Shown here: piece by piece, positions 38,126 through 47,878 of the stretch | Layout: the number at the start of each line of letters is the position of its first letter | Position numbering within the stretch: the stretch's first letter is position 1 | IMG/VR virus record: IMGVR_UViG_3300044844_000928 | Source of the DNA: a virus | DNA length: 64,000 bases | Direction: 5' to 3' (one strand) | Notes under the pieces: model-generated | Seen by the model: the letters and a program-made list of their open reading frames with translations, nothing else | Databases searched by the model: none | What the model was told of the DNA's origin: nothing | Translations under genes and position numbers: made by a program

Positions 38126-39484
38126 ATGTCGAACGGCACGCTTTATGTTGAAAAACTGAATGAAGCCTTTATTAAGATAACAGCTGATGATTTTGGTATA
38201 GAATCTGAATTGTATGAATACTTCTCATTTTTTGTTCCTGGATATAAATTTATGCCACTTTTCCGTAACAAAATTTGGGATGGAAAAGCACGGTTATACG
38301 ATATTCATAAAAAGCTGTTACAGACCGGTTTAATAGGATATGTTGAAAAATTCGCAGATATTAATGAATACACTATATCATACAAAAATGATGTAAAAGA
38401 ACAAAACAATTATCCACTTGAATTGGTAAACAATTTTTGTTCTGCATTAAAGCCACACGCAAGAAGCAAACCTATTGACTTTAGACATTACCAACTTGAC
38501 GCGGTACATAAGGCGCTTAATCTTAATAGATGTATTCTTGTGTCACCAACGTCATCTGGTAAGTCTTTAATGATTTACAGTTTAATTCGTTGGTATATTA
38601 ACGCCGGTAAAAGATGTTTGATTATCGTTCCATCAACAACCTTAGTTGAGCAAATGTATTCTGATTTTCAAGATTACTCAAGCCATAATGGGTGGAGTGT
38701 AGATGCTAACTGTAACAAAATCTATTCAGGGTTTACTAGAGAATTTAAACATAACTGTGCTATTTCAACATGGCAAAGTTTGTACAAATTAAAGCCTAAA
38801 GACCTTGAAAATATAGATGTTGTTATCGGAGATGAGTGCCATACATACGCGGCTAAATCAGCTTCAACTTTGCTGAATAATATGCCAGATGTAAAATACA
38901 GATTTGGCACAACAGGAACGCTTAATGGTAAAAATATATCAGAACTACAATTAACCGGCTTATTTGGTGAAGTTTATAAGGTAATAACAACAAAAGAGTT
39001 GATGGATAATAAAGAAGTCACTCCATTAAACATTAATTGCCTTATATTAAATCACCCTAAAGAATCTAAAGACTTATGTAAAAAAATAGAATATCAAAAA
39101 GAAATTAAGTTTTTAACGTTAGACAGTAAGCGAAACAAATTTATCTCAAATTTGACATTGTCTTTAGACGGCGTTACTTTGATTCTGTTTAACTATATAT
39201 CACACGGAAAGGCAATATTAGAGCTGTTAAAAGATAAAGGTTCTGACAGAACGATACATTATGTTTCCGGCGAAGTTGATACCGCTGAACGAAATGATAT
39301 TCGTAATTTGCTGAATTCAACTAAGAAGTCTAGAAAGGTTTACTTTGGTGAGGCATATCTAGTGATTGCCGATAATGAAGATGTAGTATTAACCGGCGGC
39401 GCTATTATAAAGGGTAAAGATTTGACATTAGATAATGATATTGATAATTCTTGGATTAAATCTAAGAAACTACATAAGGAGTGA
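38126..39484 (+). CDS. uvsW: UvsW-like SF2 helicase, N-terminal part only (lacks motifs V and VI)
   Basis: FFVPGYKFMP..WDG; SPTSSGKS; DECH; GTTGT; sequence diverges after SGEVDTAERNDIR. Confidence 0.85.
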   Translation: MSNGTLYVEKLNEAFIKITADDFGIESELYEYFSFFVPGYKFMPLFRNKIWDGKARLYDIHKKLLQTGLIGYVEKFADINEYTISYKNDVKEQNNYPLELVNNFCSALKPHARSKPIDFRHYQLDAVHKALNLNRCILVSPTSSGKSLMIYSLIRWYINAGKRCLIIVPSTTLVEQMYSDFQDYSSHNGWSVDANCNKIYSGFTREFKHNCAISTWQSLYKLKPKDLENIDVVIGDECHTYAAKSASTLLNNMPDVKYRFGTTGTLNGKNISELQLTGLFGEVYKVITTKELMDNKEVTPLNINCLILNHPKESKDLCKKIEYQKEIKFLTLDSKRNKFISNLTLSLDGVTLILFNYISHGKAILELLKDKGSDRTIHYVSGEVDTAERNDIRNLLNSTKKSRKVYFGEAYLVIADNEDVVLTGGAIIKGKDLTLDNDIDNSWIKSKKLHKE

Positions 39485-44803: not shown

Positions 44804-45049
44804 ATGAATATTTTTTCTAAAATCGGTCACGCTGTTAAACATGAAGCTGAAGCAGTTGGCAATGGCGTGGTTGATATTGCTACCGGTGTAGCGGCTAAAA
44901 CTGCTTATGATGCTATTGTATCAACTGGTACAGCCGCTGTAGAAGGAACTGTTGCCGCCGCTGGTACTGTAGCTGAAGTTGCTGGTAGCGCGGAAACTAT
45001 CGCGGTTTTGACAGAAGTGGGTGAAGTAGCGGCGATTGCTGCTCTTTAA
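44804..45049 (+). CDS. Ala/Val-rich hypothetical protein
   Basis: ORF track. Confidence 0.5.
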   Translation: MNIFSKIGHAVKHEAEAVGNGVVDIATGVAAKTAYDAIVSTGTAAVEGTVAAAGTVAEVAGSAETIAVLTEVGEVAAIAAL

Positions 45050-45056
45050 ATAAAAC

Positions 45057-45085
45057 TTTACTTTATTGTGTAAATAAATTATAAT
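45057..45085 (+). promoter_or_regulatory. Sigma70-type early promoter for the ncRNA/tRNA cluster
   Basis: TTTACT-17-TATAAT with an A-rich UP element. Confidence 0.75.
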
Positions 45086-45109
45086 ATACCTGTAGTTTGA
45101 GTTAAAGAG

Positions 45110-45727
45110 TTTTGGTAGCCTAGTCGGTTTGGATCGGGGTTACTATCAAAATTGGAAGCACTACCAATTAAAAGTGGCAAATGTATGTTCTGCGGAAAGC
45201 CTTAAAGCACAAAAAAGAACTGACAGTTTGGAAAGACAAACATTATGAAGCATAAGTATTACATTCTAGTCGGGTTTGTGGTCGTACTAGGCAGCACATG
45301 TAACTCCGTAAATACTTATGACTTGATAGTTGATGCGTAGGCTGATACGCACCGATGTGATGTAAGAGGGGAATAAGGCTATACGTTAATCCTTATTAAG
45401 CTGGAGTTCAGCGCCGGTAACTATCAATCTCCTTAGCCTGCTGGGAGAATAATAAGGCAGGAGTGTACCGAACCAGCTTGTGCACAGCGAGTGGACTGGT
45501 GACAGCTTGGAAAGACAAGCACTATGAATGATTGGTATTGTGCCGAGCGTGAAGATGCCCACTAGATAAGCGTGAGACTTGTAAAATCCCGCCAGTATCA
45601 ATGATTGATAGTTATTGCGTAGGCTGATACGCGCGGGAATTGACATCGCTTAATTGAACAGGGGAGCATACTAGGTTGCTCACTGGCAGAACCTTCTGCA
45701 AGCCGGAGATCAGCACCGGCAACTATC
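45110..45727 (+). ncRNA. Cluster of putative structured ncRNAs (two ~280-nt tandem units)
   Basis: No credible ORF, GC-richer than flanks, repeated scaffolds with compensatory changes (see findings). Confidence 0.75.
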
Positions 45728-45736
45728 TAAATTTAA

Positions 45737-45810
45737 GCGCCTTTAGCATAATTGGTTAATGCCGCGAACTCATAATTCGTAAGATCGGGGTTCGAGTCCC
45801 TGAGGGCGCA
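45737..45810 (+). tRNA. tRNA with CAT anticodon (Ile2 or elongator Met); CCA not encoded
   Basis: GCGCCTT/AGGGCGC acceptor stem, GCGAA-CTCATAA-TTCGT anticodon arm, GTTCGAG T-loop. Confidence 0.88.
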
Positions 45811-45916
45811 AAATTTTATATTAAATAAGTGTAGTTAGGTTGATATTCCCGTACCAACCAACTCAGTTACGGATTACCGAGCTGTCCTACACAAATTTAT
45901 ATATACGGATAAAAAT

Positions 45917-46615
45917 ATGTTCTACTTAGTTTATAAAATCACAAATAATATAAATCAAAAATATTATATTGGGTGTCATAAAACTACTAATGTTGATGAT
46001 GGGTATATGGGTTCTGGTGTGCTAATAAAAAGAGCAATATCTAAGTATGGAATAGAAAATTTCACTAAACAGATATTACATTACTGCTCAACTTCTGAAG
46101 AAATGTTTACTAAAGAATTTGAATTAGTTACTATTACAGAACAATCTTATAATTTAAAACTAGGTGGAAACGGCGGGTTTAACTATATTAACACACATAA
46201 TCTTAATAAACCAGAAAATTGGTGTTTAGAATCTGTTATTAGACACAAAAAAGGTTGTAAAAAAGGCGGCATTAAAAATAAAACTTTAGGTACTGGAATA
46301 TTTGGATTATCTTTTAAACAAAAATCTGAAATTGGTAAAAAGGCAAATGCAGCTACCCAATTAAAATTAATGGATACTATAGGATATAAATCTGTATTTG
46401 GTATATTAAACAAAGATGAAGAATTCCAATTAAAAAGAAAGGCTAAATTTTGTGAAATAGACCACCAAAAAGGTAATAAAAATTCACAATATGGCACTAT
46501 GTGGATTACAAATGGCGAATTTAATAGTAAAATTACAAAAGGATTAGATTTACCAGATGGGTGGATATTAGGCAGAAAAATTGGATTGCCATCTATTAAA
46601 ATTAGTTTAAAATAA
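45917..46615 (+). CDS. Seg-like GIY-YIG homing endonuclease
   Basis: YLVYKITN..N.KYYIG.H..Y.GSG..E; YNLK.GG; YGTMWITNG; sits in a tRNA cluster like T4 segB. Confidence 0.85.
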   Translation: MFYLVYKITNNINQKYYIGCHKTTNVDDGYMGSGVLIKRAISKYGIENFTKQILHYCSTSEEMFTKEFELVTITEQSYNLKLGGNGGFNYINTHNLNKPENWCLESVIRHKKGCKKGGIKNKTLGTGIFGLSFKQKSEIGKKANAATQLKLMDTIGYKSVFGILNKDEEFQLKRKAKFCEIDHQKGNKNSQYGTMWITNGEFNSKITKGLDLPDGWILGRKIGLPSIKISLK

Positions 46616-46722
46616 TGTTGCGGCAGTAGGTCAGCTCCGCGTTAAAAACCGAAATAACCAAACTGATGTTGTATTGTGGCGATAGGCTAGTCCCACGTTA
46701 AAAACTGAAATAACCAAACTGA
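46616..46722 (+). repeat. Tandem pair of hairpin plus A-rich tail units
   Basis: CGTTAAAAACYGAAATAACCAAACTGA occurs twice, each behind a covarying stem (GCGG/CCGC and GTGG/CCAC). Confidence 0.8.
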
Positions 46723-46727
46723 ATATT

Positions 46728-46803
46728 CTCTCTGTAGTGTAGTCTGGTAACATGATGCGTTTGGGGCGCATTGTCCGTCGTTCAAATCGACGCAGGGAGA
46801 CCA
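46728..46803 (+). tRNA. tRNA-Pro(TGG)
   Basis: CTCTCTG/CAGGGAG acceptor, ATGCG-TTTGGGG-CGCAT anticodon arm, TTCAAAT T-loop, CCA. Confidence 0.9.
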
Positions 46804-46809
46804 AATTAT

Positions 46810-46884
46810 TCCATCTAACGCACAAGGTGTGCGACCGGACTGTTAATCCGTGTGAGCGCGATTCGATTTCGTGAGATGGAGCCA
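46810..46884 (+). tRNA. tRNA-Asn(GTT)
   Basis: TCCATCT/AGATGGA acceptor, CGGA-CTGTTAA-TCCG anticodon arm, TTCGATT T-loop, GCCA end. Confidence 0.85.
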
Positions 46885-46890
46885 AATAAC

Positions 46891-46964
46891 GCCGGTATAG
46901 TATAATGATAATACAATTGACTTGTAATCTTTAAATCACAGTTTGATTCTGTGTACCGGCTCCA
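46891..46964 (+). tRNA. tRNA-Thr(TGT), atypical and possibly degenerate
   Basis: GCCGGTA/TACCGGC acceptor and CCA, but two mismatches in the anticodon stem, no GG in the D-loop and a TTTGA T-loop. Confidence 0.7.
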
Positions 46965-47119
46965 AATACCTGCGTTGGTTCTTACTTTTCGCTATTTTTG
47001 TAAGATTTAATAGGGGGAGACGTAGGATAAAAACATACTGTTTTAGTATGTTTTTTAAATAGCTAACTTGATTTGAATTTAACAAATTCTATTTTAATAT
47101 CCTTTTTTTGGAGAATAAC

Positions 47120-47878
47120 ATGTCAGCTACAATTGAAACTGTAAAAGCAGAAGCTAAAGAATCTTCACTTTTGAATAAAAAAGCTATGCTATTTGGTGCG
47201 TCATTATATATTGTGTTTTATGGATGGGTTCGTTGGTATGAAGGGGTTTACGGGTGGTCTGCTGGTTTAGACTCGTTTGCTCCAGAGTTTGAAACATACT
47301 GGATGAACTTCTTATACATAGAAATGGTTTTAGAGGTATTAACCGCGTCAATTTTATGGGGTTATATCTGGAAAAGTCGTGATCGTAAAGTGATGTCAAT
47401 CACACCACGTGAAGAATTGCGTCGTCATTTCACACATTGGGTATGGTTGGTAATGTACGGTATCGCAATTTATTATGGAGCATCATATTTTACTGAACAA
47501 GATGGTACATGGCATCAAACAATTGTTAGAGATACCGACTTTACTCCAAGTCATGTTATTGAGTTCTATTTAAGTTATCCGATTTATATTATTACTGGTG
47601 TTGCTTCGTTTTTATATGCTAAAACTCGTTTACCAACCTACCAAAAAGGCTTACCATTACAATATATGGTATCTGTAATTGGTCCATTTATGATTCTTCC
47701 AAACGTAGGTTTGAATGAATGGGGTCACACTTTCTGGTTTATGGAAGAATTGTTTGTTGCTCCTTTGCATTATGGATTTGTATTTTTTGGCTGGGCGGCT
47801 TTAGGCGTATTGGGCGTTGTTAATATCGAAGTAAAAGCAATTGCTAACTTATTGAAAAAAGACTTAGCTGTAGCATAG
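47120..47878 (+). CDS. pmoC: Particulate methane monooxygenase subunit C (auxiliary metabolic gene)
   Basis: GWSAGLDSFAPEFETYW; EQDGTWHQTIVRDTDFTPSH; PNVGLNEWGHTFWFMEELFVAPLHYGFV; ATG at 47120 behind a GGAG RBS. Confidence 0.98.
   Translation: MSATIETVKAEAKESSLLNKKAMLFGASLYIVFYGWVRWYEGVYGWSAGLDSFAPEFETYWMNFLYIEMVLEVLTASILWGYIWKSRDRKVMSITPREELRRHFTHWVWLVMYGIAIYYGASYFTEQDGTWHQTIVRDTDFTPSHVIEFYLSYPIYIITGVASFLYAKTRLPTYQKGLPLQYMVSVIGPFMILPNVGLNEWGHTFWFMEELFVAPLHYGFVFFGWAALGVLGVVNIEVKAIANLLKKDLAVA

What the first reader, a model, noticed from the sequence alone, without database searches (positions are those of the whole stretch)
45323..45727. tRNA-mimic RNAs with a loop-loop pseudoknot and a variable insert in place of the anticodon arm
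SEEN: both copies (45323-45427 and 45605-45727) have a 7-bp GATAGTT/AACTATC closing stem, a GCGTA-GGCTGA-TACGC hairpin, and a GCYGG-AGWTCAGCR-CCGGY hairpin stacked directly on the closing stem, like a T-arm on an acceptor stem. The loop sequences GCTGA and TCAGC are complementary. The middle segment differs in length and sequence but contains AGGGGA in both. INFERENCE: this is a tRNA-elbow mimic, possibly an RNase P substrate, that could present a variable region or decoy host tRNA-targeting defences.
Basis: partly seen in the sequence, partly recalled or inferred. Interest (0 to 1): 0.7.

Follow-up and report, generated by a model that had tools for sequence, protein, structure and literature searches.

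The report
Phage RNA scaffold carrying swappable cargo
A phage that probably infects methane-eating bacteria carries two copies of a widespread, uncatalogued folded RNA frame, locked by two loops that pair with each other, which holds interchangeable RNA domains that unrelated phages trade among themselves; what the domains do is untested.

Summary
The structure is real. Both copies (45325-45425, 45607-45727), in a T4-like pmoC phage, belong to a large phage RNA family with no Rfam match (hundreds of viral contigs, Proteobacterial prophages, 23% of complete E. coli genomes). The loop-loop pairing is supported by compensatory changes in 16 loci selected on the 5' loop alone. AGGGGA is not conserved. 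The insert (19-325 nt, about 220 types) is exchanged between phages. A near-identical phage has a different insert at the same site, and insert 2 is identical in an unrelated 55-kb phage. The HK620 insert sits, 32/32 identical, in the anticodon position of a true tRNA frame in Agtrevirus phages, so the two frames are interchangeable. RNase P/CCA processing and anticodon decoying are not supported: no T-loop, no CCA enrichment, no anticodon-like inserts. Instead, 59% of copies follow a ~20-bp stalk overlapping the closing stem, homologous to a lambda late-leader hairpin that I recall as an RNase III site. Best model: RNase III-released stable carriers displaying folded RNA domains to host proteins; function untested. 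This scan found the family earlier on other DNA.

The parts
45057..45085 (+). sigma70-type promoter candidate heading the non-coding operon
   Evidence: 10/12 consensus match; kept in relatives L100 and G001; function inferred
45108..45153 (+). leader hairpin module ending in the shared ACTATCA junction
   Evidence: fold z -2.6; identical in L100
45226..45241 (+). GGAAAGAC hairpin 1, a module that precedes the stalk
   Evidence: repeat D1; 87 viral contigs carry the exact unit-2 form
45242..45330 (+). stalk 1: arms 45242-45262 and 45308-45330 around a variable interior; the 3' arm overlaps the P1 5' strand of copy 1
   Evidence: RNase III cleavage inferred
45325..45425 (+). kissing-loop scaffold copy 1 (P1, P2, P3; loop kiss 45341-45 with 45408-12)
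45351..45399 (+). cargo 1 (49 nt)
   Evidence: 100% identical in L084 and L423 behind a different stalk; replaced by a 35-nt cargo in near-identical phages L100 and G001
45428..45499 (+). two-hairpin spacer module A2
   Evidence: fold; 80-93% copies in at least seven other loci
45505..45520 (+). GGAAAGAC hairpin 2
45521..45612 (+). stalk 2: arms 45521-45543 and 45591-45612; the 3' arm overlaps the P1 5' strand of copy 2
   Evidence: interior 94% identical in L017, where it precedes a different cargo
45607..45727 (+). kissing-loop scaffold copy 2 (loop kiss 45623-27 with 45710-14)
45633..45701 (+). cargo 2 (69 nt, three hairpins)
   Evidence: identical in L047 and in L058 (complete 54.7-kb phage without Gp23 or PmoC); compensatory stem changes in L440
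45737..45810 (+). tRNA-Met(CAT), 9 nt after copy 2, same strand, no encoded CCA
45917..46615 (+). GIY-YIG Seg-type homing endonuclease, absent from the near-identical phage L100
   Evidence: 39% identical to T4 SegB
47120..47878 (+). pmoC (context: suggests a gammaproteobacterial methanotroph host)
   Evidence: PF04896 E 8.6e-123; best PDB match 6cxh_C, E 3e-153; host class from own knowledge

Best explanation
The two elements are stable carrier RNAs. SHOWN: a constant frame (closing stem P1 stacked on hairpin P3, hairpin P2 joined by a 3-nt linker, a 5-bp kiss between the P2 and P3 loops) encloses a non-coding, folded cargo where a tRNA has its anticodon arm. Cargos, upstream stalks and downstream modules recombine freely between phages, and a cargo can also sit in a true tRNA frame or a simpler clamp. 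INFERRED: the operon is transcribed from 45057-45085. In the precursor the P1 5' strand is held in an upstream ~20-bp stalk. Host RNase III cuts the stalk, releasing its interior as one small RNA and giving the scaffold a 5' end a few bases before P1. P1 then closes by strand exchange and the kiss locks a compact, exonuclease-resistant four-way junction, doing the job of the tRNA D/T elbow without its sequence. The 26-nt constant flanks also serve as recombination joints for cargo exchange. SPECULATIVE: the cargos are the active parts, RNA domains that bind host proteins (most plausibly RNA-binding defence or regulatory proteins) during infection, which would explain their diversity and spread between unrelated phages.
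For: Kiss: 16 variant-loop loci retrieved on the 5' loop alone carry the matching double change in the 3' loop; 2 more pair by wobble, 4 have one mismatch; the kiss helix is 98.9% paired with two-sided changes at 3 of 5 pairs. Cargo: 19-325 nt, 219 clusters among 284 copies; more folded than shuffles (mean z -0.61, p 1e-14); Shine-Dalgarno motifs depleted (21 vs 41.8), T-loop and GAAA motifs enriched; compensatory changes inside cargo 2. Exchange: 54 copies of the GATAGT sub-family form 35 combinations of 22 stalks, 16 cargos and 22 downstream modules; near-identical phage L100 (99% over 4.35 kb) has another cargo at the same site. Cross-frame: HK620 cargo identical in an Agtrevirus tRNA frame; another cargo occurs in two or three frames. 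Stalk: 150 of 253 copies score 28 or more against 8 and 6 in controls, overlapping P1 by 4-7 nt; the stalks out-compete P1 in the window precursor. Lambda has the homologous stalk just after tR'; Daniels et al. 1988 (PMID 2849240, title seen in PMC7547250) report RNase III sites in lambda late RNA, and a ~63-nt late-operon RNA, LPR2, is seen on northerns (10.1101/2024.10.31.621285).
Against: No RNA ends or expression levels could be measured; only assembled contigs were available. The lambda cut positions (+209, +270) are from memory, the paper could not be read, and LPR2 coordinates were not in the text. About 40% of copies have no strong stalk. No protein partner or target is identified and no neighbouring protein gene appears conserved. 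Covariation counts are sequences, not independent events. Cargo folding is on average modest, and cargo 1 folds no better than shuffles.
Confidence: 0.5

Rival explanations
1. The frame itself is the effector: a tRNA-elbow mimic, matured by RNase P and the CCA enzyme, that decoys tRNA-targeting defences; the insert is incidental.
For: Cloverleaf topology with 7+5 bp coaxial stack; tRNA genes within 600 nt for 32 of 224 copies against 0.7% background, 31 of 32 on the same strand; interchangeable with a tRNA frame; A/C-rich trailers.
Against: The P3 loop is 8-13 nt with no T-loop consensus; P1 is 7 to over 10 bp; CCA 82 vs 74.6 +/- 6; neither window copy encodes CCA; no enrichment of anticodon-like arms beyond T-arms; 86% of copies have no tRNA nearby; cargos are themselves conserved.
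Confidence: 0.15
2. The cargos are base-pairing small RNAs or guides that act on host or phage transcripts, and the frame only protects them.
For: The site (lambdoid late leader) is a known source of Hfq-bound sRNAs such as StxS, LPR2 and lambda 6S; high cargo diversity would fit many targets.
Against: No excess complementarity to E. coli 16S, 23S, 5S, five tRNAs or tmRNA; no convincing antisense match within 3.3 Mb of held loci; cargos conserve structure through compensatory changes; no 3' terminator/U-tail as described for Pas sRNAs. mRNA targets were not tested.
Confidence: 0.13
3. A cis-acting element of the phage transcript (processing, stability or antitermination signal for downstream tRNA or lysis genes), not a free RNA.
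For: It lies in the pR'-to-holin leader in HK620 and directly before tRNAs in many phages; the P1/stalk alternative is switch-like.
Against: Downstream neighbours vary widely and several arrays end in a terminator-like hairpin; tandem copies with different cargos and cargo transfer into stand-alone tRNA frames are not expected of a cis signal.
Confidence: 0.12
4. Largely selfish or neutral modules that spread by recombination at shared ends, helped by homing endonucleases, with no benefit to the phage.
For: Mosaic arrays; a SegB-like nuclease next to the array in this genome but not in L100.
Against: Tertiary pairing and cargo helices are kept by compensatory changes, which needs selection on RNA structure; the family occurs across many phage types.
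Confidence: 0.1

Closest known systems
Phage T4 species 1 and 2 RNAs (rnaC, rnaD; AF158101 70908-71171)
   Same: Small non-decoding RNAs of 120-140 nt in the tRNA operon of a T4-like phage, next to a SegB nuclease; annotated as small stable RNAs; no known function (own knowledge).
   Different: No shared sequence and no hit with model R1; rnaC ends in a canonical T-arm, whereas this family has a 5-bp kiss and a documented exchangeable cargo.
tRNA (RF00005), including the unannotated expanded-anticodon tRNA frame of Ackermannviridae
   Same: Four-way junction order, coaxial closing stem plus last hairpin, loop-loop contact between first and last hairpin; the same cargo is found in both frames.
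   Different: No tRNA score, no D- or T-loop consensus, no anticodon, no conserved CCA, variable closing-stem length.
RNase III-processed lambda late leader (Daniels et al. 1988, PMID 2849240) and LPR2 sRNA (10.1101/2024.10.31.621285)
   Same: Homologous ~20-bp stalk whose 3' arm runs into a P1-like strand followed by the same 3-nt linker.
   Different: Lambda has another sequence after the linker, not this scaffold; exact cut sites are recalled, not read.
tmRNA tRNA-like domain and bacterial Y RNA/YrlA
   Same: tRNA top half with a large domain in place of the anticodon arm (own knowledge).
   Different: No Rfam match even at E 10; both use a real T-loop; no tag reading frame is apparent in the cargos; no Ro60 or SmpB gene seen in the flanking ORFs examined.
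Engineered tRNA-scaffold expression and purine-riboswitch-type kissing-loop scaffolds (own knowledge)
   Same: A stable frame displaying an arbitrary folded RNA; P1-P2-P3 junction locked by a loop-loop kiss.
   Different: Those are laboratory constructs or ligand sensors; here the junction holds a variable domain and is shuffled naturally.
Pas sRNAs and STnc100 (PMC8550237; 10.64898/2026.05.13.724894)
   Same: Prophage late-region small RNAs.
   Different: No scaffold at the PasD1, PasD2/PasA or PasB loci (best 13 bits, E 0.31); Pas RNAs end in intrinsic terminators.

Membership tests
tRNA (RF00005) | Covariance-model or ARAGORN match | tested here: not met
   only 45737-45810, 46728-46800 and 46891-46961 score
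tRNA (RF00005) | 7-nt T-loop and D-loop GG | tested here: not met
   P3 loop 8-13 nt, mostly AGAUCAGCA
tRNA (RF00005) | Anticodon arm | tested here: not met
   10 arm-like hits vs 4.0 in shuffles, about half of them T-arms
tRNA (RF00005) | Cloverleaf topology with closing stem stacked on the last hairpin | tested here: met
RNase P substrates | 3' RCCA at a fixed position | tested here: not met
   82 vs 74.6 +/- 6 in column shuffles, spread over four positions; absent in both window copies
RNase P substrates | Cleavage by RNase P | not testable with these tools
   needs in vitro or rnpA49 data
Y RNA / YrlA | Rfam match | tested here: not met
   no hit at E up to 10 in 45000-47150 or in 40 related loci
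Y RNA / YrlA | Linked Ro60/Rsr gene | tested here: inconclusive
   none among the 11 flanking proteins scanned; the whole genome is not held
tmRNA (RF00023 and permuted forms) | Model match for the scaffold | tested here: not met
   the weak tmRNA-like scores do not cover the scaffold hairpin
T4 rnaC/rnaD | Sequence or structure homology | tested here: not met
T4 rnaC/rnaD | Position in the tRNA operon of a T4-like phage | tested here: met
RNase III processing stalks | About 20-22 bp duplex with few internal mismatches | tested here: met
RNase III processing stalks | Staggered cut with 2-nt 3' overhang in vivo | not testable with these tools
   only contigs available; lambda precedent recalled, its positions fall in the stalk
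Pas / STnc100 sRNAs | Sequence identity with the mapped loci | tested here: not met

The most novel reading that the evidence does not exclude
Phages maintain a shared, combinatorial library of RNA effector domains (natural aptamers or decoys against host defence or regulatory proteins). The domains are displayed in interchangeable stable frames (this kissing-loop scaffold, tRNA frames, simple clamps), cut out of polycistronic arrays by RNase III, and shuffled between unrelated phages through short constant ends: an RNA-level counterpart of anti-defence gene cassettes.
Probability: 0.3. Interest if true: 0.92.

Novelty: new variant of a known kind. Interest (0 to 1): 0.63.

Why it matters
The family sits in the best-studied part of lambdoid genomes (the late leader), in P1-like phage-plasmids and in 23% of complete E. 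coli genomes, yet no catalogue I could search lists it. If the cargos are effectors, hundreds of unrecognised phage RNA domains become testable one at a time in E. coli with HK620. This could also address the old question of what the stable non-decoding RNAs in T4-like tRNA operons do. A natural frame that tolerates 20-300 nt inserts is also a ready RNA expression scaffold. If the cargos prove inert, it remains a new structured RNA family.

Tried and rejected
Rfam at gathering and E-value thresholds, window and 40 loci: no family. Literature search for the motif strings: 0 papers; the supplements of Fremin 2023 and Weinberg 2017 are not held, so a listing among Fremin's 10,006 candidates cannot be excluded. 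phi80 M3 RNA (an RNase P substrate): no scaffold in the phi80 region fetched, paper not held. T4 rnaC/rnaD, PasA/B/D and STnc100: not homologous. AGGGGA: rejected family-wide; 4 of 16 cargo types in the local sub-family, two of them the discovery pair, so inconclusive there at best. Antisense to E. coli stable RNAs: none. Expression: contigs of freshwater RNA libraries cover relatives of 45000-45790, but these are contigs from essentially one sample and may include DNA. One contig matches copy 2 almost end to end, but its ends lie about 30 nt outside the cargo on both sides, as expected from k-mer branching at the repeated frame, so it is no evidence of processing. Integron-like DNA cassettes were considered because of the inverted ends; not pursued, since a loop-loop contact under compensatory change and co-orientation with tRNAs point to RNA. 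The minus-strand 86-aa ORF 45386-45646 was disregarded because it crosses modules that are shuffled independently. No whole genome is held for the window.

Full report
Context. The window is a T4-like phage: clamp loader, RegA, PhoH, Hsp20 and a stand-alone pmoC; its nearest held relative encodes a Gp23 capsid. This matches the freshwater pmoC-phages of Chen et al. 2020 (PMC7674155), where text searches for tRNA and non-coding terms showed no mention of these RNAs. The finding lies in a 0.65-kb non-coding stretch between a promoter candidate (45057-45085) and tRNA-Met (45737-45810).

Observation. Every element described is present. Rfam finds nothing on either copy, even at E 10. The 16-nt P2 hairpin occurs in more than 119 viral contigs and, relaxed, in more than 120 GTDB contigs, mostly Proteobacteria. 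The HK620 copy matches 484 phage records in whole or part, including P1, HK629 and mEp460, and its 5' part is in 1267 of 5426 complete E. coli genomes. A structure search of the fetched loci gave 284 distinct copies.

Structure. To avoid circularity I seeded on the 5' hairpin and the 3' loop sequence only: P1 was 95.3% paired (partner shuffles 63.1%, maximum 65.2%) and P3 91.5% (84.4%), with many pair types per column. To test the kiss I scanned for copies whose 5' loop departs from consensus, without constraining the 3' side. Of 26 hits, 23 are true copies. Sixteen carry the matching double change (GGTCGA with TCGAC in 11, GGCCGA with CGGC in 3, GTGCGA with TCGCA, GGTTGA with TCAAC), two pair by wobble, four have one mismatch and one was unresolved. 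On a 37-sequence alignment the kiss is 98.9% paired, with two-sided changes at three of five pairs, and slid controls fall to 27-46% (P1-P3 in that alignment were selected for pairing, the kiss was not). These counts are sequences, not independent events, but the commonest swap occurs with at least three unrelated cargos.

The insert. It is 19-325 nt (median 73) and falls into 219 clusters. AGGGGA is at chance level (9 vs 10.2). Inserts fold somewhat better than shuffles, lack Shine-Dalgarno motifs, are enriched in T-loop and GAAA motifs, are not anticodon-like and show no complementarity to E. coli stable RNAs. Insert 2 keeps two helices through double changes in L440. The inserts are thus structured domains under their own selection.

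Exchange. L100 is 99% identical to the window over 4.35 kb up to the end of the first P2 hairpin and then carries a different 35-nt insert, different tRNAs, no second unit and no nuclease; G001 agrees with L100. Insert 1 with its downstream module is identical in L084 and L423 behind another stalk. Insert 2 is identical in L047 and in L058, a complete 54.7-kb phage without Gp23 or PmoC. In the local sub-family, 54 copies form 35 combinations of 22 stalks, 16 inserts and 22 downstream modules. The first 32 nt of the HK620 insert are identical to the expanded anticodon arm of a gene with normal acceptor, D and T arms and CCA in Agtrevirus SP-9-14 and two IMG/VR relatives, and 87% identical in Kutterviruses; 158 records hold that frame, which resembles phage tRNA-Ile genes. 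Another insert occurs in this scaffold, in a simpler clamp, and in related form in a Salmonella jumbo phage. This is sequence-level evidence that the scaffold and a tRNA frame do the same carrier job.

Processing. The RNase P reading fares poorly: the P3 loop is not a T-loop, P1 varies in length, CCA is not enriched beyond the A/C-rich trailer composition, and neither window copy has it. tRNA genes are enriched nearby (14% vs 0.7%, nearly all on the same strand), but most copies have none. In contrast, 150 of 253 copies follow a ~20-bp stalk (controls 8 and 6) whose 3' arm includes 4-7 nt of the P1 5' strand. In the window precursor the stalks win over P1 (about 0.7 vs 0.24 for copy 1). Lambda has the homologous stalk just after tR'. 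Daniels et al. 1988 report RNase III sites in lambda late RNA (title seen); the positions I recall, +209 and +270, fall on its two arms, and their spacing fits the ~63-nt LPR2 RNA, but neither could be checked in the sources. I infer that RNase III releases both the stalk interior and the scaffold, whose P1 then closes by strand exchange. The RNase III lead came partly from earlier scan notes; the family-wide overlap statistic was computed here.

Function. The frame is best read as a stabiliser and recombination joint, and the cargo as the active part. Rapid exchange among unrelated phages that seem to share a habitat suggests selection in conflict with hosts, so binding of host proteins is my leading guess, but no target was found. 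A SegB-like nuclease beside the array may help spread it, as is known for T4 SegB and its tRNA region (own knowledge). Confidence by step: fold and kiss 0.97; carrier of exchangeable cargo 0.8; RNase III release 0.6; protein-binding anti-host cargo 0.3.

Novelty. The family fails membership in tRNA, YrlA, tmRNA, rnaC/rnaD and Pas families, and no paper in the held library contains its motifs. It works like the stable tRNA-like RNAs of T-even tRNA operons and like engineered tRNA scaffolds. This scan has reported the same or a very similar family before on other DNA (e1-130305, e1-080950, e1-244665, e1-204024), so the family is not new to the scan. This locus adds a very recent cargo swap, unbiased covariation of the kiss, and an identical cargo in two frame types.

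Noticed in passing
L394:1478-1566 and L393:1478-1563: Ackermannviridae carry a tRNA frame (annotated tRNA-Pro, -Leu or OTHER) whose anticodon arm is an expanded 32-nt domain identical or similar to the HK620 scaffold cargo; 158 records.
   Followed up: yes
L120:2220-2262: The HK620 late leader contains a tmRNA-tag-like reading (ANEEMYLAVA-stop) between two stalks, upstream of the scaffold; also reported in earlier scan notes.
   Followed up: no
window 45226-45241 and 45505-45520: GGAAAGAC hairpin module, exact in 87 viral contigs, usually directly before a stalk; no Rfam match; present near 42 of 282 scaffolds.
   Followed up: partly
L440:463-537, L461:4316-4390, L479:653-727: Stalks whose interior is a degenerate tRNA body (32-35 bits), the acceptor stem being extended into the long stalk.
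   Followed up: no
L058:7700-7795, L021, L434-L500: A second, simpler frame with the same ends, a short GCGC hairpin and no kiss carries the commonest cargo in 12 arrays; a related cargo occurs in Salmonella jumbo phage SA002 (L515:375-445).
   Followed up: partly
window 46618-46722: Two tandem ~50-nt hairpin units with A-rich tails before tRNA-Pro; no Rfam match; also in L100.
   Followed up: no
window 45917-46615: SegB-like homing endonuclease in the tRNA cluster, absent from near-identical phages L100 and (as far as the contig reaches) G001, which have other tRNAs there.
   Followed up: partly
L121:2453-2528: In Pseudomonas phage Marin the 3' part of a scaffold copy is annotated as tRNA-Thr, so some phage tRNA annotations are this RNA.
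   Followed up: partly
L395:514-597: Lambda keeps the P1 arms, linker and A/C trailer after its stalk but has an unrelated interior, possibly a degenerate or different frame.
   Followed up: partly
window 38126-39484: UvsW-like helicase ORF appears truncated with a foreign tail (seen in the ORF list; also noted by the scan).
   Followed up: no
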